Position numbers and translations under genes: made by a program. A stretch of 64,000 nucleotides of DNA, from the NCBI RefSeq assembly GCF_016026235.1, contig NZ_CP065613.1. One strand, written 5' to 3'. Below the pieces are notes generated by a model that did no database searches, was not told the DNA's origin, and saw nothing but the letters and a program-made list of their open reading frames with translations. This DNA comes from Escherichia coli (lineage in GTDB: Bacteria; Pseudomonadota; Gammaproteobacteria; Enterobacterales; Enterobacteriaceae). Of the stretch, positions 1-64,000 are shown piece by piece. Every line of letters starts with the position of its first letter. Positions within the stretch are counted from its first letter, which is position 1.

Positions 1-1
1 C

Positions 2-916
2 ATGAATCAAACTGTCGCGGTGACGGGCGCTACCGGTTTTATCGGTAAATATATTATCGATAACCTGCTCGCCCGCGGCTTTCACGTTCGCGCATTGACG
101 CGTACTGCCCGCGCTCACGTCAATGACAATCTCACCTGGGTGCGCGGTTCGCTGGAAGATACTCATTCACTTAGCGAACTGGTTGCCGGAGCCAGTGCGG
201 TGGTCCATTGCGCTGGGCAAGTGCGCGGACACAAAGAAGAGATTTTTACCCACTGTAACGTTGACGGCAGCCTGCACCTGATGCAAGCGGCAAAAGAGAG
301 CGGCTTTTGCCAACGTTTTCTGTTTATCTCTTCGCTGGCGGCGCGCCATCCCGAGCTCTCCTGGTACGCAAATTCCAAACACGTCGCCGAACAACGGCTG
401 ACTGCAATGGCTGACGAAATTACGCTGGGCGTTTTTCGCCCGACAGCCGTGTATGGTCCCGGCGATAAAGAGTTAAAACCGCTGTTTGACTGGATGCTGC
501 GCGGCCTGCTGCCACGACTTGGTGCACCAGATACACAGCTCTCTTTCCTGCACGTCACCGATTTTGCGCAAGCAGTGGGTCAGTGGTTAAGCGCCGAAAC
601 TGTACAGACGCAAACCTATGAATTATGCGATGGCGTCGCTGGCGGCTATGACTGGCAACGCATACAGCAACTTGCCGCCAACGTCCGTTGCGGTTCCGTG
701 CGAATGGTTGGTATTCCTCTGCCGGTACTCACCTGCCTTGCGGATATCAGTACCGCGTTGAGTCGCCTGGCAGGTAAAGAACCTATGCTGACCCGCTCGA
801 AAATTCGTGAATTAACCCACGCCGACTGGTCGGCAAGTAATAACCGTATTTCTGAAGATATTAATTGGTTTCCCGGGATTAGCCTGGAACACGCATTACG
901 CAACGGGCTATTTTGA
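2..916 (+). CDS. NAD(P)-dependent epimerase/dehydratase-family (extended SDR) reductase
   Basis: 304-aa ORF; N-terminal Rossmann motif VTGATGFIGK; YANSK (YxxxK) catalytic motif; start codon at 2-4. Confidence 0.8.
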   Translation: MNQTVAVTGATGFIGKYIIDNLLARGFHVRALTRTARAHVNDNLTWVRGSLEDTHSLSELVAGASAVVHCAGQVRGHKEEIFTHCNVDGSLHLMQAAKESGFCQRFLFISSLAARHPELSWYANSKHVAEQRLTAMADEITLGVFRPTAVYGPGDKELKPLFDWMLRGLLPRLGAPDTQLSFLHVTDFAQAVGQWLSAETVQTQTYELCDGVAGGYDWQRIQQLAANVRCGSVRMVGIPLPVLTCLADISTALSRLAGKEPMLTRSKIRELTHADWSASNNRISEDINWFPGISLEHALRNGLF

Positions 917-947
917 TTGTCTTGTTTAAAGGTGTGTTAACGTTTCT

Positions 948-1196
948 ATGGTAAATCGTGAAATAGTAATGGATTACATCCTTTCCTGTTTACAGGATTT
1001 GGTCGAAAACGGTGTGGAAATTAAGCCCGACAGCGATCTCGTCAACGATCTTGGCCTGGAGTCGATCAAAGTGATGGATCTCTTAATGATGCTGGAAGAC
1101 AGATTCGATATTTCCATTCCTATTAATATTCTGCTGGATGTCAAAACCCCTGCGCAATTAATGGAAACTCTACTTCCATGGCTGGAGAATAAATAA
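948..1196 (+). CDS. acyl carrier protein-like small acidic protein
   Basis: 82-aa ORF; DLGLESI motif resembling the ACP phosphopantetheine attachment site (DSL); stop overlaps start of next gene. Confidence 0.65.
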   Translation: MVNREIVMDYILSCLQDLVENGVEIKPDSDLVNDLGLESIKVMDLLMMLEDRFDISIPINILLDVKTPAQLMETLLPWLENK

Positions 1197-2368
1197 TGGG
1201 GCTATACGATAAATATGCGCGCCTTGCTGGCGAGCGACTGCAATTTAGTGACAACGGGTTAACACCGTTTGGCACCTGTATTGATGAAGTGTATTCCGCC
1301 ACCGAAGGCCGGATCGGCAATAAAAAAGTGATTCTGGCCGGGACCAATAATTATCTCGGTTTAACCTTTAATCATGATGCCATCAGCGAAGGTCAGGCAG
1401 CGTTAGCGGCCCAAGGCACCGGCACCACCGGTTCTCGTATGGCAAACGGCAGTTATGCGCCGCACCTGGCGTTAGAGAAAGAGATTGCCGAGTTTTTCAA
1501 TCGCCCTACCGCTATCGTTTTTTCAACCGGTTATACCGCTAATTTAGGCGTCATCAGCGCACTTGCCGACCATAACGCCGTGGTGTTACTGGATGCCGAC
1601 AGCCACGCCAGTATTTATGACGCCTGTTCTCTCGGTGGCGCGGAAATTATTCGTTTCCGCCATAACGATGCTAAAGATCTGGAACGGCGCATGGTTCGCC
1701 TCGGTGAACGGGCGAAAGAGGCGATTATCATCGTTGAGGGCATCTACAGCATGCTCGGTGACGTTGCGCCGCTGGCGGAAATTGTTGATATCAAACGTCG
1801 TCTCGGTGGTTATTTGATTGTCGATGAAGCGCATTCGTTTGGCGTGTTAGGCGCAACAGGGCGCGGACTGGCTGAAGCTGTCGGCGTTGAAGATGATGTG
1901 GATATTATCGTTGGTACTTTCAGTAAAAGTCTGGCCTCGATTGGCGGTTTTGCTGTCGGTTCGGAAGCGATGGAAGTGCTGCGCTACGGCAGCCGCCCGT
2001 ATATTTTTACCGCCTCTCCTTCTCCGTCCTGCATTGCGACCGTGCGCTCGTCGTTAAGAACTATTGCCACACAACCAGAGCTGCGGCAAAAGCTGATGGA
2101 TAACGCCAACCATCTGTATGACGGTCTGCAAAAACTGGGTTATGAGTTAAGTTCACATATTAGCCCGGTAGTGCCAGTAATAATCGGTTCGAAAGAGGAA
2201 GGTTTACGCATCTGGCGCGAGCTTATCTCGCTGGGCGTGTATGTGAATCTTATCCTGCCGCCTGCCGCGCCTGCAGGCATCACGCTGCTGCGCTGTAGCG
2301 TAAATGCTGCCCACAGTCGTGAGCAAATCGATGCCATCATTCAGGCATTTGCTACTCTGAAGCAGTAA
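1196..2368 (+). CDS. PLP-dependent alpha-oxoamine synthase family acyltransferase (BioF/Kbl/serine-palmitoyltransferase-like)
   Basis: 390-aa ORF; conserved VDEAHSFG and GTFSKSL (PLP-binding Lys) motifs typical of class-II aminotransferase alpha-oxoamine synthases. Confidence 0.85.
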   Translation: MGLYDKYARLAGERLQFSDNGLTPFGTCIDEVYSATEGRIGNKKVILAGTNNYLGLTFNHDAISEGQAALAAQGTGTTGSRMANGSYAPHLALEKEIAEFFNRPTAIVFSTGYTANLGVISALADHNAVVLLDADSHASIYDACSLGGAEIIRFRHNDAKDLERRMVRLGERAKEAIIIVEGIYSMLGDVAPLAEIVDIKRRLGGYLIVDEAHSFGVLGATGRGLAEAVGVEDDVDIIVGTFSKSLASIGGFAVGSEAMEVLRYGSRPYIFTASPSPSCIATVRSSLRTIATQPELRQKLMDNANHLYDGLQKLGYELSSHISPVVPVIIGSKEEGLRIWRELISLGVYVNLILPPAAPAGITLLRCSVNAAHSREQIDAIIQAFATLKQ

Positions 2369-2373
2369 TGTGA

Positions 2374-2401
2374 GCCCGCCGTGGTGTTTGCGCCACGGCG
2401 G
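2374..2401. terminator. bidirectional stem-loop between convergent operons
   Basis: inverted repeat cccgccgtgg / ccacggcggg with 8-nt loop, followed by ttt. Confidence 0.5.
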
Positions 2402-2403
2402 GT

Positions 2404-3483
2404 TTAATGTTGTCTGTCATACCAATACACCAGGCTCAACGCCACCAACACAAACGCTACCGGTAAACCGAGCGCGGTAACAGGTGCGCTTAACGCAAAT
2501 AGCAATCCCAGATTAACCATGATTTGATAGCTGATCCAGGTGAGTAAGCCCACGATGACGCCTACAGCGAGACGGCTACCCATCCCAGGCGAACGCGGGG
2601 CAGTAAAGGTAAACGGCACAGCCAGCAAAATCATCGCCAGGGTCAGGATGGGTTGCCCCAGTTTTTCCCACAGTGCAAGGCGGTATTCGCTGCTGGGTTG
2701 CCCGGTTTCCTGCAAATAATGGATGTAATGATTAAGCTGACGGACAGAAAAAGTATTCCCCGGCATTGATAACTCTTCAAGATTCATACTGGTGAAGGCC
2801 GATTGCCAGGCAAGATTATCTAATGTTTCCAGCGTTTCTTTGCCATTCAGCCATTTTTTATGATTCACACCATGCAGGACCCACGTTTTGTCGTCTTTAA
2901 TGGTGGCACTGCGTGCATAAATGTAGGATTCAAGCGAGAGATCGTCGGGATAATGAAATATCTCCACGCCCACCGGCTGGCCCTGCTCGTTCAGCGATTT
3001 CACCGTCACAAATTCATTACCACGCCTGGCCCACAGCATATTGCCGGTAATGTCATCGTCCTCCCCCAACGCGGTGGCGGTCGATTTGATTTGCAGCGCC
3101 TGTTGCTGCAATGGCGACGCCACCCACTCATCTATCGCGCCTAACGAAACAGTCCACAATATCCCGGCAACCAGCGCCACCAGTGCAATACGGAAGATAG
3201 AAAACCCCGTGCTGCGAATGGCGGTAAGCTCACTGTTTTTCGATAACTGCCCCAGGCCAACAATCCCTCCCAATAAGGCGATAAACGGCGAAAGTTCGAC
3301 CAGTGTGCGCGGTAAGGTCATTAGCACCACCAGCACCGCCTGAGTCCAGCGATAACCGCCCGGGCTGACATCATCCAGTTCGTTAATCAGGTTGAAGGTG
3401 GTAAAAAGCGGCAGCAATAGCCCTGCGGCGGCGGCAAAACCGAGAAAGAGATGACGGATTAAATAGCGACTGAAAACATTCAT
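2404..3483 (-). CDS. LptG-like (YjgP/YjgQ family) permease paralog
   Basis: ORF 2404-3564; likely start at internal Met (MNVFSRYLIRHLF) giving a 4-bp overlap with the upstream gene; multi-TM protein with C-terminal similarity to LptG. Confidence 0.7.
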   Translation of the reverse strand: MNVFSRYLIRHLFLGFAAAAGLLLPLFTTFNLINELDDVSPGGYRWTQAVLVVLMTLPRTLVELSPFIALLGGIVGLGQLSKNSELTAIRSTGFSIFRIALVALVAGILWTVSLGAIDEWVASPLQQQALQIKSTATALGEDDDITGNMLWARRGNEFVTVKSLNEQGQPVGVEIFHYPDDLSLESYIYARSATIKDDKTWVLHGVNHKKWLNGKETLETLDNLAWQSAFTSMNLEELSMPGNTFSVRQLNHYIHYLQETGQPSSEYRLALWEKLGQPILTLAMILLAVPFTFTAPRSPGMGSRLAVGVIVGLLTWISYQIMVNLGLLFALSAPVTALGLPVAFVLVALSLVYWYDRQH

Positions 3484-4550
3484 CGGGAAAATTTCTGCAG
3501 CAAAGAGAAGTCGCGTGCGACCAGCATCAGCAGGCCCATTAGCATGAGTCCGGGTACTAACCACAAACCAGGAATGAGGGGAATCGCGCCGTTAGCCACC
3601 AGCGTACGGCAGACGTCGCCGCCATAAAAAATGGCAATAAACAGCAACGTCAGTGGCAATAATGTTGAAAATCGCCCTTGCCGCGGTTTTACCCGACTTA
3701 ATGAAATGGCCAGCAGCGCCATCAACAATGCTGTCAGGCCACGGCTTTGCCGCCATTGCAGTTCGGCATGATCGGCAGGAAATACAGAGCGTGCCAGCTC
3801 CGTGACCGATTTTGCTTTGCGTTTGACGTTAGGGCTTTGATCCAGCGGATTCAGATGTAATTGCAGATTACGGTAGATCTGTTCATTGTCGTCACGCCCC
3901 TGATGATCGAGAAGATAGGCAGTGCCGTTGTGCAACATAACGGTCGGTTTCTCGGGTGATGGGTCAACCACATCAACCGAACGGGCGCGGAAAATGCGGG
4001 TTCGATTGGCAGTAGAAGTATAAATCAGCGCGTCAGTCAGGCGATTATTATCCTGATCAACCGTCTGCGAAAGGATCATTCGTCCGTTATCGTTAGTGTT
4101 AAATTTCTTTGCCCGCAACTGGCGAACATCCAGCTCCGACTGCGACTGCTGCTCCAGTTGATAAATCTGCGCATAAGCCCACGGACGACCATACATCGAC
4201 AGAAGGGTGACAAAAATACTTAGCGGTATCGCCAGATAAAGAACGGCTTTGTACAAGCGTCCCGGACTGCCCCCCGCCGCAGAGATAGCGGTAATTTCCG
4301 AGTCGGTATACATCTGCCCTAGCGTCACGCCAACTGACACATACAGACCAACAGGTAACAACATCTCCAGTGCAATCAGCACTTTGTAGAAAACGATATC
4401 CAGCACAACATCAAGAGCTAATGTCCCATTTGCCGCTTCGGTCAGATAACGCTGTGCGGAGTAGCTGGCGAAAATAAAGATCAGAAAACCGACGATAATC
4501 AGCACCAGACGGCGCGTACCACGCATGATGTAGTGTTCAACCAGCTTCAT
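3480..4550 (-). CDS. LptF-like (YjgP/YjgQ family) permease paralog
   Basis: 356-aa ORF; motif LGQMYTDSEITAISAAG resembling the conserved LptF/LptG segment; multi-TM. Confidence 0.7.
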   Translation of the reverse strand: MKLVEHYIMRGTRRLVLIIVGFLIFIFASYSAQRYLTEAANGTLALDVVLDIVFYKVLIALEMLLPVGLYVSVGVTLGQMYTDSEITAISAAGGSPGRLYKAVLYLAIPLSIFVTLLSMYGRPWAYAQIYQLEQQSQSELDVRQLRAKKFNTNDNGRMILSQTVDQDNNRLTDALIYTSTANRTRIFRARSVDVVDPSPEKPTVMLHNGTAYLLDHQGRDDNEQIYRNLQLHLNPLDQSPNVKRKAKSVTELARSVFPADHAELQWRQSRGLTALLMALLAISLSRVKPRQGRFSTLLPLTLLFIAIFYGGDVCRTLVANGAIPLIPGLWLVPGLMLMGLLMLVARDFSLLQKFSR

Positions 4551-4580
4551 CTCACTAACGCCCTCAATCCTTTGAATTTT

Positions 4581-5144
4581 TTATTCATTGATCAGTTTCT
4601 GCGCCAGCGCAATGACATGATCTACCTCTTCCGGCGTCAGGCTGCCGTCCTTTGCCCACTGAATTTGCCCGGTTTTATTCAGCACCAGAATGGTTGAACT
4701 CTGCTCCGGCAAGCGCCAGGCAACGCGTCCCTGTCCATTGCCGTCAATAACGAATTGCGCCCACGGATAGCGGCGTTTATTTTTTTCGATTTTGCCAACG
4801 ACAAAATAGCCAGTACCAAAGATGGCATCATCAGTGTTCACAATGGTGGTGGGCTGAAAACGATCCTGTGGAAAGTTTGCCGCTTCAACCGCTTTAATTA
4901 ACAGTGAGTTCTTCTTCTTCGCTGACTTACGCCCGGCGATATACTGGATAATGCGGACTTTTCCCGCCAATTGTGTGCTGTTCCACTTTTGGTAGTGAAT
5001 TTCGTCGTCGCTATTCAGAAGCAGCTCGCCGCCTTCCTGAATATAAACAGGGGTAACCGTTTTGCCAGTGACGAAATTGTGTGCCTGCACACCCGGGGCT
5101 AAGAGCATGATAATCAGCGCAATAATCAAACGAGATGACATCAT
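4581..5144 (-). CDS. secreted/periplasmic protein of unknown function
   Basis: 187-aa ORF with an N-terminal signal-peptide-like segment (LIIALIIMLLAPGVQA). Confidence 0.5.
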   Translation of the reverse strand: MMSSRLIIALIIMLLAPGVQAHNFVTGKTVTPVYIQEGGELLLNSDDEIHYQKWNSTQLAGKVRIIQYIAGRKSAKKKNSLLIKAVEAANFPQDRFQPTTIVNTDDAIFGTGYFVVGKIEKNKRRYPWAQFVIDGNGQGRVAWRLPEQSSTILVLNKTGQIQWAKDGSLTPEEVDHVIALAQKLINE

Positions 5145-5152
5145 TGCTCCGG

Positions 5153-5977
5153 TTATAGCGGAAAACGCGAAATCAGCAGCTCTAAGCGCTGGCGAATATC
5201 GCTATCCAGCGCCACCGGTGCATCATACGACTGGCGGTTTTCCATATCATCCGCCACCATGTCGTCGTGTTTATCCCCCATCAGGCCATTAATGGCGGCG
5301 AGGAAACGGGAAATCTGTAACGCCTCTTTATTTTCAGGATCAAGCGATCTTAAGGTGTCGTAATAAGAAACCTGCTGGCTGATGATTTTTCGCACATCAT
5401 GAAATTCCCTGCCGGTTAGTCGCGGTTTGGCAATTATCTCTTTCAGGGCATGCATTTGCTTTTGCCGATAGGCAATAAAACCGCTTACGCTTTCTAACTG
5501 GCTATGGCGTAATGAATAGTTCACCAACGACCAGACCGGAGAGCTTAAATAAATTCGTAACAGGTTGCCGTAATACGACACAATATTTTTCTTACCGTTA
5601 CGAAATCCGTCCTGAAAACGTCCCAGAAAAACGGTCGTTTTGCCGAATAAAAATCTGGCCTGATGCTTTTTTAAATACAGCCGTTGTGCAAAACGTAGAT
5701 GCTTGTAGCGCGCTCGCATGTATTTAAACTGTTTACGCTCGTCTGTCGTCAGCTCATCGCCTTTGGCTTGTTTGCGAATTAAACGAAGTAATTCCTGACG
5801 ATCAACGCCATTGAGCCAGAATTGCAGGCATAACGCGTAATTATCATGGATGATTTCGGTGGTACAACATAGTGCGATAGTCGGCGGCAAACTGACCTGG
5901 GCATCAACAACATCATCTTCCTCAATCGCAACAAATAGATGCTCGCTCGCCTCAAGCGGGAAATATTTTCTCATCAT
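5153..5977 (-). CDS. hypothetical protein (possible counterpart of the K-12 yghO pseudogene)
   Basis: 274-aa ORF, in operon orientation with flanking genes; no motif recognised. Confidence 0.45.
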   Translation of the reverse strand: MMRKYFPLEASEHLFVAIEEDDVVDAQVSLPPTIALCCTTEIIHDNYALCLQFWLNGVDRQELLRLIRKQAKGDELTTDERKQFKYMRARYKHLRFAQRLYLKKHQARFLFGKTTVFLGRFQDGFRNGKKNIVSYYGNLLRIYLSSPVWSLVNYSLRHSQLESVSGFIAYRQKQMHALKEIIAKPRLTGREFHDVRKIISQQVSYYDTLRSLDPENKEALQISRFLAAINGLMGDKHDDMVADDMENRQSYDAPVALDSDIRQRLELLISRFPL

Positions 5978-7326
5978 CAGGATTTCTCTCCGGCTGCGTT
6001 ATAAAGCAAGGAATGGCGCTGAAAAAAAGCCTTTAAGATCGGAATTAGCGAAAGCACCACATCCAGACATTGACCGCCGAAATAAGCAAACGCTGCTCCC
6101 AGCACGCCAAACAGATGACAGAACATGAACAGCAATACGATGTAGCCGATTGAGGCGATGGTTTGCGCCACGAGAAAAGCGCGCTGTTTTCCCGCCATCA
6201 ATAGCAATGACTCCTGAGGGAAGCCCAGCATCGAGATCACAATTGCGCCCAGCATCACCTGAATCAGGTCATACGCTTCGAGATACTTAACGCCAAACAC
6301 CAGCGAAATGAGCGGCTTGCCGACGATCAACACCGCGAGCGCCACCAGAATACCGATTCCGCCCGCCAGTAAACCGGACTTCACACCTAACAACCACGGT
6401 CTGGTGGTGCGCGGATCTAAACGCATCACCTCTGGGTAAAAACTTTTACCCAGCAAACCCGCTGGCGTTCCGGCGGCGTCGAAGAATGTCATGGCGATTT
6501 TAAATAACCCGGCGACAGCGGGTCCTAACACGATCCCCACCAACACTGTGCTGCACGAGTTACGCGCCGACCAGATGGAGTGGGCAATGTTGGTTGACCA
6601 GACAAAACTCCACGCGCCTTTAATGTGTCGGGCAGACTCAAACAGATTCAATTTGAAGGCGTTATGGATATTTCTGCGGCGTAATTCGCGCGCGGCAAAC
6701 CACCAGTACATGGTGCCGCCAACCAGATTCGACACGTACCAGGCAATAACAAAACCCGCAAAACCAAAGTCAAAATACCAGGCTGCGACGCTCCCCGCTG
6801 CGCGCAGAAAAGGTTTCGTCGCCTGCTGTACAGCAATCAAATCAAAGCGATCTACCGCACGCAGAATGCCGGTCGGCGTGGAGGAAGCCATTGAAGGAAT
6901 GAGCGTGCAATACAGCGCTGCCAGCCAAAAGCTTTGGTCATCCAGACCTAATGAATGGGAAAGAAAAGGGAGTAAGGCAATGCCGCCGACAATCGCCACC
7001 GCGCCGCTGACGATATCCAGCGAGAAGGAAAATGAGACGACATTGCGAAATTGCTGCGGATTATTGTTGGTTAATGCTGGTGTTCCGTACTGAACCACCA
7101 GCTGCCATGTCTGAAACTTAATAAAATCGCTGATCGACTTGGCGTACGATTGCACAATCACCAGTACGCCAAACATGGCGGGCGTCATCCCTTTACCGGC
7201 ACACGAGAGCGCCAACAGACCCAGCAAGGCGCTCACGACATTACTGGAGCCTAACCAGGCGCTATTGCGAATAATGGTGCGAAACGCGCCATCTGCAAAC
7301 CAATGTTTGATGTTAAAACCCGCCAA
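5977..7326 (-). CDS. yghQ: polytopic inner-membrane protein, flippase-like (polysaccharide-biosynthesis/MOP type)
   Basis: 449-aa highly hydrophobic ORF; position immediately before yghR as in K-12. Confidence 0.6.
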   Translation of the reverse strand: MAGFNIKHWFADGAFRTIIRNSAWLGSSNVVSALLGLLALSCAGKGMTPAMFGVLVIVQSYAKSISDFIKFQTWQLVVQYGTPALTNNNPQQFRNVVSFSFSLDIVSGAVAIVGGIALLPFLSHSLGLDDQSFWLAALYCTLIPSMASSTPTGILRAVDRFDLIAVQQATKPFLRAAGSVAAWYFDFGFAGFVIAWYVSNLVGGTMYWWFAARELRRRNIHNAFKLNLFESARHIKGAWSFVWSTNIAHSIWSARNSCSTVLVGIVLGPAVAGLFKIAMTFFDAAGTPAGLLGKSFYPEVMRLDPRTTRPWLLGVKSGLLAGGIGILVALAVLIVGKPLISLVFGVKYLEAYDLIQVMLGAIVISMLGFPQESLLLMAGKQRAFLVAQTIASIGYIVLLFMFCHLFGVLGAAFAYFGGQCLDVVLSLIPILKAFFQRHSLLYNAAGEKS

Positions 7327-9789: not shown

Positions 9790-11301
9790 TTAAATCAACT
9801 GCAATGCTATCCAGTACAGCCCACCAGAAAGAAAAATCGCCGCCGGTAAAGTAAATACCCACGCCATCAGGATGCTGGTTACCGTTTTACGCTGTAACCC
9901 ACCGCCGTCCACCACCATCGTCCCTGCAACTGCAGACGAGAGGACGTGTGTTGTGGAGACGGGCATCCCAATATAACTGGCAAGACCGATAGACACTGCC
10001 GCCGTCATTTGTGCCGCCATGCCTTGCGCATACGTCATGCCGCGCTTACCAATCTTCTCACCGATGGTCATCGCTACACGACGCCAGCCAATCATGGTGC
10101 CAATGCCGAGCGCCAGTGCTACCGCCATGATGATCCACACCGGAGCGTACTCAATGGTGCTTAACATATCGCTGCGAAGTTTTTTCAGCAGGTTCTGGTC
10201 TTCTTTACTGACGCCTGGCGGTTTCGCCAGCTTCGCGGAGGTATCAGAGATGCACAGCATAATGCACAGCATAATGCGGCGCAGCTGGCTGCGCTGACTC
10301 ACGCTTAACGGCTCGTAACTTTCCATATTGCCTGGCAGCATCGTTTTAACGCGCGCAATCGCATCAAAGGTATTTGCCGGATGACAGTGAAACTCCGTCA
10401 CTTGCGCGCCATCAGTAGATGCCGCAGGCAATGGAGGTTCCATCGTAATCAACTTCTGCGGCAGTTCAGGATGCTGTTGCAGGTAGTGTTCGAAGTTGGT
10501 GACGGCATCGCGGGTACGGGTAATTTCATAGCCGGACGCGTTCATATTGACGACGAAGCCAGCAGGGGCAATCCCCACCAATACCAGCATCACCAGGCCG
10601 ATCCCTTTCTGCCCGTCGTTAGCGCCGTGCGAAAACGCCACGCCCGCAGCGGAAACAATCAGCGCAATACGCGTCCAGAATGGCGGCTTACGTTTGCCTT
10701 TTTTCTTTTTGCGATCTTCCGGAATGCGGTGAATACGGTCACGCTTTTTCGTTCCGCTCCAGTAGCGTCGCAGCAGGAATATCAGGCCTCCCGCAATGAC
10801 CAGGCCGACGATAGGGGAAACAATCAGCGAGGAGAAAATTTTGGTCACTTCACGCAGGTTTAACGCATCCATCACCGATGAGCCGGTTAACAGCGCGTTG
10901 GTTAAACCGATGCCGATAATCGCACCAATCAAGGTGTGCGAACTGGAGGCCGGTAAACCAAAGAACCACGTTCCCAGGTTCCAGATAATCGCCGCCAGCA
11001 GCATGGAAAAGACCATCGCCAGACCGTGAGTTGACCCCATATTCAGCAGCAAATCGGTTGGTAACATATGGACAATGGCATAGGCAACGCTAAGTCCGCC
11101 CAATAACACGCCAAAAAAGTTAAAAAATGCCGCCATCACCACAGCAAGTTGTGGTTGCATGGCACGAGTATAAATAACGGTTGCCACCGCATTCGCCGTA
11201 TCATGAAAACCATTGATTGCTTCGTAGAACAACACAAATGCCAGAGCAAGTAATAACAAAAGCCCTGTGTATATATCAAGGCCAACAAATAAATTTAGCA
11301 T
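9790..11301 (-). CDS. pitB: low-affinity inorganic phosphate transporter
   Basis: 503-aa ORF with PiT-family sequence; adjacent to gss as in K-12; contains a 12-bp in-frame tandem duplication. Confidence 0.85.
10251..10274. repeat. 12-bp perfect tandem duplication (tgcacagcataa x2) inside pitB
   Basis: direct reading of sequence; encodes IMLCIMLC on the minus strand. Confidence 0.9.
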
Positions 11302-58319: not shown

Positions 58320-58560
58320 TGGTTACCAGAATCAGGGCAGTCTTAGGAGTGGCGGCATATAGCCAAAATAACGTGAGCGGGTCCATGCCCGACAGAATCG
58401 TTACTCTCTCCCATCCGGACTCTAACCGTCGGCCCCGGAATTACACCGGATCTGCTGTCCTTTGAGTTCGCACCCAAAGCGCTCGCGGGCTTTCAACTGA
58501 GTTGATTTACCGCCGGTGGGGAATTTCGCCCCGCCCTGAGAATAAGCGGATTCACTATAA
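58320..58560 (-). promoter_or_regulatory. FMN riboswitch (RFN element) in the ribB leader
   Basis: long structured 5' leader; minus-strand sequence contains ggggccgacggttagagtccggatgggagag, matching conserved RFN core segments; boundaries approximate. Confidence 0.6.
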
Positions 58561-61974: not shown

Positions 61975-62114
61975 GCTGAAACGGGAAAGCCCCTCCCGAA
62001 GAAGGGGCCTTGTATAAGGAAAGGGTTATGATGAAGCTCGTCATCATACTGATTGTGTTGTTACTCGTAAGTTTCGCAGCTTATTAACAGCCAATCAGAG
62101 GGGGGAGAAATCCT
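61975..62114 (-). ncRNA. sibD: SibD antitoxin sRNA body (antisense to ibsD), separated from its promoter by the IS insertion
   Basis: sequence homologous to the intact second copy; boundaries inferred. Confidence 0.4.
62028..62087 (+). CDS. ibsD: type I toxin peptide Ibs (19 aa, MMKLVIILIVLLLVSFAAY)
   Basis: direct translation; hydrophobic 19-mer. Confidence 0.8.
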   Translation: MMKLVIILIVLLLVSFAAY

Positions 62115-63407
62115 CTGAGGGATCCCCAGAAAATTTAGTAAACCATTATCATATTGGTATACCGTTGCTGTAGAACTTTCAGCCCTGCGTCAAATGACAG
62201 TGTGTTTAGTATGAGTGGAGAATGTCGAATCACATTCTCCGCCAGTTTTAATAACGAGATGACTCGCCTGTGCTTCACTGTATTTGCCTGATATTTATGA
62301 TGTATCCCTTTGTTTTCCAGGCTGAAACCGCTTAACCACATAATGATACTGGCTAATGTTGCGATCAGACTCAATACCGTGACCCGCCCGGATGAATGAC
62401 TGGCACCAAACCGTAGTCCAAATCCCCAGCGAGGATTTTTTTCATCCCTGAAATTTTGCTCAATTTGCATTCTACGGCTGTATAATTTCATTACCTGTTT
62501 TGGCGAGAACTCAGTACTGTTTGTGAAAATAAACCATGGTGATTTCCCGGCAGTACGAGCTTTAGCCGTCACCGATGGTCTGGTTGCTCTTTCCTTCGAG
62601 CGTTTAAATCTACGACCTTTAGGCTTACTTTTATAAAGATAAAAATGCCCTTCATGTTGTGCATTTTTATCTCGACCCAGCAGGCCTTCACCTAAATAAA
62701 TTGCTGTCGTTGATGCTTTTGTGCCTGAGTCCGACACCTTTTCCCAGCCATTACCAACATTGTAATAATGATTGCCCAGTACCCGGCAAATATAGGTCCA
62801 GCCACGGGAGCGGAGCTGTTGGAACCATCGCCCCTGAAAACCGGCATCTGTAATAACAATGACATCAGTCCCGGGGGAAAAGCACTCAGCAAGCGATTCC
62901 AGAAAACGCTCATGTACATCTGCATTCGCTGTCTGTGATGATGGAACGACACAACTCATCAACGGTAAAGAACGCCCGTCACATGCCAGGCTTGCCCGCA
63001 AAAGCTGAAAACGAGAGGCATGATAAGCACTCCAGTCAATGAGTATCACAACACGAGACATTCCCGCGTAATCTTTTGGGTAATTCGCTGAAAAATGGTG
63101 GAAACCTCATTTTGCAAATGTCGATTCCCCAACAGTCGATCCACCCGCTTTATTTTGTTTTTAACTGATGCCGTACCGGTTAAATGACGCCCGATACTGG
63201 TAAGTGTGAGGGAAGCGCCATTTATTACAGCATTAGTTGCGTCAATCAGTGATTTTTGACGGTAAAGATGCAAAGGGGCCAGTATATTGTTAAGGAAATT
63301 TTGGCATAATGAACGTGCAGGCATAGTGGTGATCTCCTTGAAATTGTTAGCACAATCAATTAGATCACATCTCACTATGCCTGTCTTGTTTTCTGGGGAT
63401 TCCTCAG
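62115..63407 (-). mobile_element. IS4-family, IS10-like insertion sequence (1293 bp)
   Basis: 19-bp imperfect terminal inverted repeats ctgagggatccccagaaaa / ctgaggaatccccagaaaa; flanked by direct repeats gagaaatcct (9-10 bp target-site duplication) that are single-copy in the second ibs/sib repeat. Confidence 0.8.
62135..63324 (-). CDS. IS10-like DDE transposase, encoded in two overlapping frames (possible frameshift near 63046-63061)
   Basis: N-terminal part (MPARSLCQ...NRHLQNE) and C-terminal part (VILIDWS...LYSRRMQIEQNFRDEK) both align by eye to IS10 transposase; reading frame changes between ITRE and SRVVIL. Confidence 0.7.
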
Positions 63408-63436
63408 GAGAAATCCTCCCTTACCCTTGTTCCTTT

Positions 63437-63465
63437 ACTTTAGGTTGAAAAAAAATCAGCGTCAA
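63437..63465 (-). promoter_or_regulatory. predicted sibD promoter (TTGACG-17 bp-TAAAGT), now directed into the IS right end
   Basis: hexamers read on the minus strand; equivalent TTGACG-17-TAGAGT at 63813-63841 in the second copy. Confidence 0.45.
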
Positions 63466-63654
63466 GAAGGTTTCATTAACACATATCCCTAGCCCAAAAA
63501 GCCGGGGATTTTTTATATCTGCGTTCCGCTAAAAGGTGCAAATGCTCAGGACGTTGCAGCGTTTTGCGTGACCGCTCGGGGAAGGCAAAACTGCTTCAGG
63601 GAAAGCGTTGCGCGGGGTCCGGCGCTCATCAACAATCGGGGAGTCAGCAAGGGG

Positions 63655-63805
63655 CTGAAACGGGAAAGCCCCTCCCGAGGAAGGGGCCTTATAGAAGGAA
63701 AGGGTTATGATGAAGCTCGTCATCATACTGGTTGTGTTGTTACTGTTAAGTTTCCCGACTTACTAACAACTGATCAGAGGGGGGAGAAATCCTCCCTTAC
63801 CCTTG
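63655..63805 (-). ncRNA. sibE: SibE antitoxin sRNA (antisense to ibsE)
   Basis: predicted promoter at 63813-63841 and a hairpin plus U-rich tract near 63655-63690 on the minus strand; boundaries approximate. Confidence 0.45.
63707..63766 (+). CDS. ibsE: type I toxin peptide Ibs (19 aa, MMKLVIILVVLLLLSFPTY)
   Basis: direct translation. Confidence 0.8.
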   Translation: MMKLVIILVVLLLLSFPTY

Positions 63806-63885
63806 TTCCTTTACTCTAGGTTGAAAAAACAACAGCGTCAATAGGCCTGCCATGTACGAAGCGAGATCTGTGAACCGCTTTCCGG

Positions 63886-64000
63886 TTAGCCTTTTTTATC
63901 CTGTTGGATCTTCTTGATAATGTTAGTGGTCGAGCAACCGTCTTCAAAGTTGAGCACCAACACTTCGCCGCCGTTGGCCCAGACTTCTTTACTCCCGGCG
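63886..64000 (-). CDS. hldE: 3' end (partial, runs off window) of bifunctional heptose kinase/adenylyltransferase
   Basis: minus-strand translation ends ...[28 protein letters not shown]-stop. Confidence 0.7.

What the first reader, a model, noticed from the sequence alone, without database searches (positions are those of the whole stretch)
63046..63061. Transposase of the IS10-like element is split across two reading frames
The N-terminal 93 codons (from 63324) end at a stop after ...ITRECLVL, while the C-terminal 308-codon frame begins MSRVVILIDWS in a different frame overlapping by about 15 nt. Both halves align to IS10 transposase, so a single-nucleotide indel, whether real pseudogenisation or a sequencing error, is the simplest explanation.
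Basis: seen in the sequence. Interest (0 to 1): 0.35.

Follow-up and report, generated by a model that had tools for sequence, protein, structure and literature searches.

The report
Frameshifted copy of insertion sequence ISEc60
One copy of a known E. coli/Shigella jumping gene (ISEc60, a distant IS10 relative) has lost a single G from a run of four, which splits its transposase gene in two; this is an ordinary dead or mis-sequenced copy, not a programmed two-frame gene.

Summary
On the minus strand, a 92-codon ORF (63324→63046, ending ...ITRECLVL*) and a 308-codon ORF (63061→62135, MSRVVILIDWS...) overlap by 16 nt, and the second lies in the −1 frame. Both sit in a 1293-bp element (62115-63407) with 19-bp terminal inverted repeats and a 10-bp target duplication.

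The element is ISEc60 (IS4 family). It is 99.8% identical to copies annotated under that name, and its protein is only 36% identical to IS10A transposase. Intact copies are 1294 bp and encode one 396-aa transposase. The window copy differs from them by loss of one G from a GGGG run (GCGGGGAATG→GCGGGAATG, now GGG at 63063-63065), one synonymous SNP and one private missense SNP (L378F).

In about 95 E. coli chromosome/plasmid places and 72 PLSDB places, no record's best match carries the G3 junction. The intact protein is on record in 512 collection blocks. The overlap has no in-phase slippery heptamer and no unusual downstream structure, so programmed frameshifting is rejected.

Real mutation versus assembly error cannot be settled without reads. 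I favour a real mutation (about 0.7), because the window has no single-base indels against a 99.93%-identical relative over about 52 kb. Novelty: already known. Interest is low.

Side observation: ISEc60 inserts very specifically into GGGG-N4-CCCC hairpin loops, and here it splits a Sib antitoxin RNA gene.

The parts
62115..63407 (-). ISEc60 copy (IS4 family), 1293 bp; intact copies are 1294 bp
   Evidence: Megablast gives 99.8% identity over 100% of its length to copies annotated 'IS4-like element ISEc60 family transposase'. The boundaries come from the IR search and from the FDAARGOS_943 empty site.
63389..63407 (-). Left (transposase-proximal) terminal inverted repeat, CTGAGGAATCCCCAGAAAA
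   Evidence: 2 matches in the window against 0.04 expected by chance
62115..62133 (+). Right terminal inverted repeat, CTGAGGGATCCCCAGAAAA (18 of 19 bases match the left IR)
62105..62114 (+). 10-bp target-site duplication, copy 1 (GAGAAATCCT on the + strand)
   Evidence: The empty site in FDAARGOS_943 (L008) matches both flanks.
63408..63417 (+). 10-bp target-site duplication, copy 2
63046..63324 (-). Transposase N-terminal fragment: 92 codons plus TGA. The last 5 residues (ECLVL) are out-of-frame read-through.
   Evidence: Matches NF033591 model positions 1-53 and is 47% identical to IS10A residues 8-79.
63063..63065 (-). The lesion: a GGG run that is GGGG in intact copies (IS positions 343-346). 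Codon 88 GGA (Gly) is lost and the frame shifts.
   Evidence: Alignment with L001-L005. No record's best place in the E. coli and plasmid collections carries G3.
62135..63061 (-). Transposase C-terminal fragment: 308 codons, corresponding to residues 89-396 of the intact protein. It carries the whole DDE domain (D97, D160, E289 in intact numbering).
   Evidence: Pfam DDE_Tnp_1 E=1.1e-20, NF033591 model 52-339, alignment to IS10A, motif positions.
62194..62194 (-). Private missense SNP (CTT→TTT, L378F) of this copy
   Evidence: No 100% match to the surrounding 111 nt in E. coli genomes or plasmids.
63286..63286 (-). Synonymous SNP (AAC→AAT, N13), shared with some other copies (L037, L038, L043)
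62013..62114 (-). 3' part of the interrupted Sib antitoxin RNA gene (the SibD position, after yqiK). It is antisense to an intact ibs toxin ORF at 62028-62087 (+).
   Evidence: Rfam SIB_RNA hit 62013-62152, ibs ORF MMKLVIILIVLLLVSFAAY, annotation of the empty site.
63408..63465 (-). 5' part of the same Sib gene, separated from the rest by the IS. Coordinates are approximate and are inferred by analogy with the intact Sib copy at 63692-63841.
   Evidence: window 63407-64000 is collinear with L008 3405-3998; inference

Best explanation
This is a defective copy of the known insertion sequence ISEc60 (IS4 family, IS10-related). A 1-bp deletion in a GGGG run at codon 88 shifts the reading frame. 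The single 396-aa DDE transposase gene is therefore read as a 92-aa N-terminal stub and a separate 308-aa ORF that holds the catalytic domain. The most likely mechanism is replication slippage at a short homopolymer in one IS copy, with no selection to keep it. The element keeps both inverted repeats, so it could move only if an intact copy elsewhere in the genome supplied transposase. Shown: the deletion, the single-ORF state of intact copies, and the lack of frameshift signals. Inferred: that the deletion is real in the organism rather than an assembly error, and that the copy is non-autonomous.
For: The window copy is 1293 bp and intact copies are 1294 bp. The only length difference is one G in GCGGGGAATG. 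Intact copies are annotated with one 1191-nt CDS of 396 aa, and that exact protein is on record in 512 blocks of the public collection. No record's best place, among about 95 places in complete E. coli genomes and 72 in plasmids, carries the G3 junction; each spans 112 nt against the query's 111. Other ISEc60 copies carry other inactivating lesions in the same N-terminal stretch: an A-deletion at 298, a T-deletion at 317, and nonsense changes at 294 and 318. Decayed copies are therefore a normal part of this IS population. Three points favour a real mutation. The window has no single-base indels over 48,280 + 3,416 + 594 bp against the 99.93%-identical FDAARGOS_943. This copy also carries a private missense substitution, L378F, found in no other record, which suggests a copy with its own history. 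Mis-mapped reads from a multi-copy family would pull a consensus toward the majority G4 allele, not away from it (inference).
Against: No reads are available, so a homopolymer deletion error cannot be excluded. The identical G-deletion occurs in a second copy on a different haplotype, locus and lineage: GCA_900449095.1, at the ampH-iprA site. That genome has another copy with a different homopolymer deletion. This pattern would fit systematic homopolymer miscalls as well as recurrent real slippage. The other ISEc60 copies in the window's own genome could not be inspected, because only 64 kb is available and the genome was not found in the collections searched.
Confidence: 0.7

Rival explanations
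1. Sequencing or assembly artefact: the organism has GGGG here and an intact 396-aa transposase, and the assembly dropped one G from the homopolymer.
For: The lesion is a single-base deletion in a homopolymer, which is the classic long-read or 454 error type. The same deletion appears in an unrelated copy in GCA_900449095.1, whose second defective copy also has a homopolymer deletion. A T5→T4 deletion is seen in GCA_000188815.2. Multi-copy IS elements are hard to polish.
Against: There are no single-base indels over about 52 kb of the window against a 99.93%-identical relative. The copy-specific substitutions were resolved, including a private L378F. Reads mis-mapped from other copies would favour G4. 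Real inactivating substitutions (nonsense codons) occur in other copies, so true decay of ISEc60 copies does happen.
Confidence: 0.25
2. Programmed -1 ribosomal frameshifting (IS1/IS3 style), or leaky slippage: the two-frame layout is functional and yields a fused transposase.
For: The downstream ORF is in the -1 frame with a 61-nt open overlap (63106-63046). A weak single-tRNA slip site, CAA_AAG, lies in the overlap at 63078-63073, and a slip there would give a near-full-length protein (ITR→DYA) (sequence; the shiftiness of A_AAG is from my general knowledge).
Against: Intact copies of the same IS, and of relatives such as IS10A, have one uninterrupted ORF, and the window differs from them by a deletion. 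There is no X_XXY_YYZ heptamer in phase in the overlap; the only such heptamer, CCCAAAA, is out of phase. The 73 nt downstream fold no better than shuffles (z=-0.93). The G3 layout is not conserved: no record's best match at this junction carries it in either collection.
Confidence: 0.02
3. Domesticated regulator: the split copy is kept because the 92-aa N-terminal peptide, which would bind the IS ends, and/or the N-terminally truncated 308-aa protein damp transposition of the other ISEc60 copies. This would resemble the Tn5 Inh protein or IS1 InsA.
For: ORF B starts at an in-frame Met (M89 of the intact protein), keeps the complete DDE domain, and overlaps the ORF A stop codon, so translational coupling is conceivable. 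Several independent defective copies leave exactly this 308-aa ORF.
Against: There is no good Shine-Dalgarno sequence at proper spacing before the ATG at 63061 (sequence). The set of '308-aa' copies was selected by my own query, so it is not evidence of selection. Those lesions are heterogeneous and rare compared with 512 blocks holding the intact gene. The copy carries a private missense change, which is compatible with drift. No expression data exist.
Confidence: 0.03

Closest known systems
ISEc60 (IS4 family; the name NCBI PGAP gives the 396-aa transposase WP_001111632.1)
   Same: 99.8% nucleotide identity over the whole element, the same inverted repeats, a 10-bp target duplication, and the same host range: E. 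coli/EIEC, Shigella dysenteriae and E. albertii chromosomes and large plasmids.
   Different: One G is missing from the G4 run at IS positions 343-346, which splits the gene. There is also a synonymous N13 change and a private L378F change.
IS10 / IS10A transposase (Tn10)
   Same: Same family and architecture: a single ORF of about 400 aa, with an N-terminal region and a DDE_Tnp_1 catalytic domain. The alignment covers residues 1-367 and has no gap across the junction. D97 aligns with IS10A residue 97 (the IS10 catalytic D97, numbering from my own knowledge), and the YREK motif (Y-x2-R-x3-E-x6-K) is present in YSRRMQIEQNFRDEK.
   Different: Only 36% amino-acid identity. The element is 1294 bp with 10-bp duplications at GGGG-N4-CCCC sites. 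From my own knowledge, IS10 is 1329 bp and makes 9-bp duplications at NGCTNAGCN. 'IS10-like' therefore holds only at family or subgroup level.
ISSfl1 (IS4 family, Shigella flexneri)
   Same: The next-closest named relative found, at 51.6% amino-acid identity over the full length.
   Different: A different element, not examined further.
IS1 / IS3-family programmed -1 frameshift transposases
   Same: A superficially similar layout: a short upstream ORF and a longer downstream ORF in the -1 frame, with an overlap.
   Different: In those families the functional copies conserve both the layout and the slippery heptamer. Here the functional copies have one ORF, and the layout results from a deletion.

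Membership tests
ISEc60 / IS4 family (IS10 group) | Near-identity to copies annotated as ISEc60 | tested here: met
   99.8% over 1293/1294 bp to many copies annotated 'IS4-like element ISEc60 family transposase'. The ISfinder reference entry itself could not be consulted.
ISEc60 / IS4 family (IS10 group) | DDE transposase of the DDE_Tnp_1 type with the catalytic D, D, E and the YREK motif | tested here: met
   Pfam PF01609 E=1.1e-20 on the C-fragment. NCBIfam NF033591 scores 360 bits on the repaired protein against a cut-off of 152. D97, D160 and E289 by alignment to IS10A. YSRRMQIEQNFRDEK is seen in the sequence.
ISEc60 / IS4 family (IS10 group) | Terminal inverted repeats flanked by a direct target duplication | tested here: met
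   19-bp IRs with 18 of 19 bases matching. 10-bp TSD AGGATTTCTC. The empty site is seen in FDAARGOS_943.
ISEc60 / IS4 family (IS10 group) | Single uninterrupted transposase ORF (a functional, autonomous element) | tested here: not met
   The window copy is split into 92 + 308 codons by a 1-bp deletion. It is a member by descent but a defective copy.
Programmed -1 frameshift transposase genes (IS1/IS3 type) | Two-frame arrangement conserved in functional copies | tested here: not met
   Intact copies have one 396-aa ORF. No record's best place in E. coli genomes or plasmids carries the G3 junction.
Programmed -1 frameshift transposase genes (IS1/IS3 type) | In-phase slippery heptamer X_XXY_YYZ in the overlap | tested here: not met
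   There is none in phase; the only heptamer, CCCAAAA, is out of phase.
Programmed -1 frameshift transposase genes (IS1/IS3 type) | Stimulatory downstream RNA structure | tested here: not met
   MFE -16.5 kcal/mol against a shuffle mean of -14.0, z=-0.93, with 33 of 200 shuffles folding as well.
Programmed -1 frameshift transposase genes (IS1/IS3 type) | Measured frameshift product | not testable with these tools
   Needs a reporter assay or proteomics.

The most novel reading that the evidence does not exclude
The frameshifted copy is not inert. It may express the 92-aa end-binding stub and/or the 308-aa N-terminally truncated catalytic protein (from M89, by coupling to the overlapping stop) as trans-acting inhibitors of the other ISEc60 copies in an IS-expanded genome, like Tn5 Inh. 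Alternatively, rare -1 slippage at CAA_AAG may regenerate a nearly full-length transposase. Recurrence of the same G-deletion on two haplotypes would then reflect a mutational switch at the G4 run rather than an accident.
Probability: 0.04. Interest if true: 0.35.

Novelty: already known. Interest (0 to 1): 0.08.

Why it matters
It matters little in itself. Frameshifted IS copies are routine in E. coli and Shigella genomes, and annotation pipelines flag them as pseudogenes. The practical value is for annotation: call this one ISEc60 transposase pseudogene, not two genes, and do not label it a programmed frameshift. It also marks one base (63063-63065) to check against reads as an assembly-quality probe. 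The side observations may be more useful. ISEc60 appears to choose GGGG-N4-CCCC hairpin loops with high specificity, and it repeatedly lands in Sib/ibs type I toxin-antitoxin loci and in the ampH-iprA spacer.

Tried and rejected
1. Programmed frameshifting was rejected. Intact copies have one ORF, the overlap has no in-phase slippery heptamer, and there is no significant downstream structure.

2. I looked for the same insertion in other genomes so that the orthologous copy could be compared. No complete E. coli genome has ISEc60 at this Sib copy. FDAARGOS_943 has the empty site. CFSAN029787 has an independent insertion in the neighbouring Sib copy, and that one is intact.

3. I tried to identify the source genome.
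- Exact-protein look-ups of the window's 308-aa and 109-aa products found nothing.
- YqiK is too common to be informative.
- A lineage-specific PitB variant is in 17 contigs, but the tool does not name them all.
- A scan of GTDB species representatives for the junction with G3 or G4 found no matches. The pattern was verified to work on the window and on fetched loci.

4. I searched for the private L378F allele to find sister copies. None exist in E. coli genomes or plasmids.

5. The literature mentions 'ISEc60' only incidentally, in two papers (not read further).

6. I did not run the metagenome scan. The exact-protein index already covers metagenome and Logan assemblies and returned a single contig for the G3 N-fragment.

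Full report
**1. The observation**

On the minus strand there is an ORF at 63375..63046. Its ATG at 63324 gives 92 sense codons ending ...QKITRECLVL, followed by TGA at 63048-63046. A second ORF at 63061..62135 has 308 codons and begins MSRVVILIDWS.

The two ORFs overlap by 16 nt. The second lies in the -1 frame relative to the first, and that frame is open upstream only as far as 63106. The description is therefore accurate. The '93 codons' count includes the stop.

**2. What the element is**

The ORFs sit inside a 1293-bp element at 62115-63407. It is bounded by 19-bp inverted repeats, CTGAGGRATCCCCAGAAAA, with 2 matches in the window against 0.04 expected. A 10-bp direct duplication, AGGATTTCTC on the minus strand, flanks it.

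Megablast finds the element at 99.8% identity and full length in E. coli (several EIEC-type strains), Shigella dysenteriae and E. albertii chromosomes and large plasmids. In those records it is annotated 'IS4-like element ISEc60 family transposase'.

Domain and family searches agree:
- The C-fragment carries Pfam DDE_Tnp_1 (E=1.1e-20).
- The two fragments hit consecutive parts of one NCBIfam IS4 transposase model, positions 1-53 and 52-339.
- Against a real IS10A transposase (WP_001206290.1), the N-fragment aligns to residues 8-79 (47% identity, E=9e-18) and the C-fragment to residues 93-370 (35% identity, E=2e-54).
- The intact ISEc60 protein aligns to IS10A at 36% identity with no gap across the junction.

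'IS10-like' is therefore right at family level, but the element is ISEc60. Its closest other named relative is ISSfl1, at 51.6% identity.

**3. The lesion**

Five intact copies from different replicons and species (L001-L005) are 1294 bp and are annotated with one 1191-nt CDS of 396 aa. Aligned to the closest of them, the window copy differs at three positions:
- C→T at 63286, which is synonymous (N13).
- C→T at 62194, which gives L378F.
- One missing G in GCGGGGAATG, leaving GGG at 63063-63065.

Restoring the G gives ...QKITRGMSRVVILIDWS..., which is the intact protein. The M that starts the 308-aa ORF is M89 of the intact protein. The catalytic residues D97, D160 and E289 (by alignment to IS10A) and the YREK motif all lie in the C-fragment. 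The last five residues of the N-fragment (ECLVL) are out-of-frame.

**4. Is the two-frame layout ever the normal state?**

No.
- A 111-nt query across the junction finds about 95 places in complete E. coli genomes and 72 in PLSDB plasmids. Every record's best place spans 112 nt at 99.1% identity or less, meaning it has the extra base.
- The intact 396-aa protein is on record in 512 blocks of the public gene-position index. Eleven further copies fetched from two genomes (loci L029-L038) are full-length with no indel: nine are identical to the consensus and two differ by one SNP.
- The overlap has no X_XXY_YYZ heptamer in phase, and the only such heptamer (CCCAAAA) is out of phase.
- The 73 nt downstream fold no better than shuffled sequence (z=-0.93).

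Programmed frameshifting is rejected.

**5. Other defective copies**

The exact 92-aa N-fragment is on record in one other contig, GCA_900449095.1, in the ampH-iprA spacer. That copy has the same G-deletion but the consensus bases at the two SNP positions. Its flanks are only about 99.0% identical to FDAARGOS_943, whereas the window is 99.93% identical. The deletion therefore occurs on two haplotypes, at two loci, in two lineages.

Looking up the consensus 308-aa fragment found further defective copies:

| Locus | Source | Lesion (IS position) |
|---|---|---|
| L040 | GCA_900449095.1, second site | A4→A3 at 298 |
| L042 | GCA_000188815.2 | T5→T4 at 317 |
| L041 | metagenome contig | CAA→TAA at 294 |
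| L043 | GCA_900449985.1 | CAG→TAG at 318 |

Decayed ISEc60 copies are therefore a small but normal fraction of the population. This sample is biased, because my query selects lesions upstream of M89.

**6. Real mutation or artefact?**

This cannot be settled without reads.

For a real mutation:
- The window has no single-base indels across 48,280 + 3,416 + 594 bp against FDAARGOS_943. The differences are 24 substitutions and one 12-nt in-frame indel in pitB.
- The copy has a private missense substitution seen in no other record, which suggests an independently evolving copy that was resolved correctly.
- Cross-mapping of reads among many copies would bias the consensus toward G4 (inference).

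For an artefact:
- This is a homopolymer deletion.
- The same deletion recurs in an unrelated copy, in a genome that has a second copy with a different homopolymer deletion.

I put real at about 0.7 and artefact at about 0.25.

**7. Consequence**

If the deletion is real, the copy cannot make transposase. The N-terminal 88 residues are separated from the DDE domain; in IS10 and Tn5 the N-terminus contacts the element ends (established knowledge of those enzymes, not tested here).

Both IRs are intact, so the copy could in principle be moved by transposase from another copy. IS10-type transposases act preferentially in cis (my knowledge), so such movement would be inefficient.

Inhibitor roles for the fragments (Tn5 Inh-like) and rare slippage at CAA_AAG are conceivable. 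Nothing I could test supports them.

**8. Context and side observations**

The window is collinear with the E. coli yghS-pitB-hyb-parC-parE-yqiK-sib-hldE region.

The IS sits 28 nt after an intact ibs toxin ORF (62028-62087, MMKLVIILIVLLLVSFAAY). It splits the overlapping antisense Sib RNA gene, and a second, intact Sib/ibs copy follows at 63692-63841.

CFSAN029787 has independent ISEc60 insertions at the homologous position of the neighbouring Sib copy and in the ibsA locus.

The ampH-iprA spacer was hit at the identical 10-bp site in three genomes, in both orientations and by different IS variants.

Nineteen independent sites give the target consensus g|GGG-WWWW-CYC|c, which typically lies at the loop of a GC-rich, terminator-like hairpin.

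**9. Verdict**

This is an ordinary frameshifted (or mis-sequenced) copy of a known IS. Novelty: already known. Interest is low.

Noticed in passing
window 62013-62114 and 63408-63465 (split Sib gene); ibs ORF 62028-62087 (+); intact second copy 63692-63841 with ibs 63707-63766: The IS has inserted into a Sib antitoxin RNA gene of the tandem ibs/Sib type I toxin-antitoxin pair between yqiK and hldE. This cuts the Sib promoter and about the first 50 nt away from the part antisense to the still-intact ibs toxin ORF. Transposase-strand read-through out of the IS runs in the Sib direction and might substitute for the lost promoter.
   Followed up: partly
L009 (CFSAN029787, 3292-4585), L002 (CFSAN029787, ibsA locus), window 62105-62114: There are independent ISEc60 insertions in other Sib/ibs loci. 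One is at the homologous position of the neighbouring Sib copy, with identical flanking sequence. Another lies between ibsA and a second ibs gene. Sib genes therefore seem to be a recurrent ISEc60 target.
   Followed up: partly
19 independent insertion sites in loci L001-L043 plus the window: ISEc60 makes 10-bp duplications with a strong palindromic target consensus, g|GGG-WWWW-CYC|c. The sites usually lie at the loop of a GC-rich hairpin, and several are followed by T-runs like intrinsic terminators. The target resembles the element's own ends (GGRATCCCC). Tandem copies separated by one 10-bp target also occur (L001, L030/L031).
   Followed up: partly
L012/L039, L023, L024 (ampH-iprA spacer in three genomes): The same 10-bp site, TGGTTATCCC, was used by ISEc60 in three genomes. 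In FDAARGOS_943 the IS is in the opposite orientation and has an IS5-family element inside it. In 2023CK-01509 the IS is a 98.6%-identity variant. This looks like an insertion hot spot.
   Followed up: partly
window 10250-10261 (pitB, minus strand 9790-11301): There is a 12-nt in-frame insertion in pitB relative to FDAARGOS_943 (503 aa against 499 aa), plus three SNPs in the same gene. It is the only indel in 48 kb. The variant protein occurs in 17 public contigs.
   Followed up: partly
window ~1-7200, by collinearity with L010 40139-49001: Next to yghS/yghT lies a cluster annotated in the close relative as fatty acyl-AMP ligase, acyl carrier protein, serine palmitoyltransferase, extra LptF/LptG copies and an LPS biosynthesis protein. 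This is a sphingolipid-like lipid synthesis island, which I believe is unusual for E. coli.
   Followed up: no
window 58399-58547 (-): An FMN riboswitch (Rfam RF00050, 120.9 bits). By comparison with the gene order in L013, it presumably lies upstream of ribB.
   Followed up: no
FDAARGOS_943 (NZ_CP065615.1): The window's closest complete relative carries about 33-38 ISEc60 copies on its chromosome. This is an IS expansion of the kind seen in Shigella and EIEC lineages, yet that strain has an empty site where the window has its copy.
   Followed up: no
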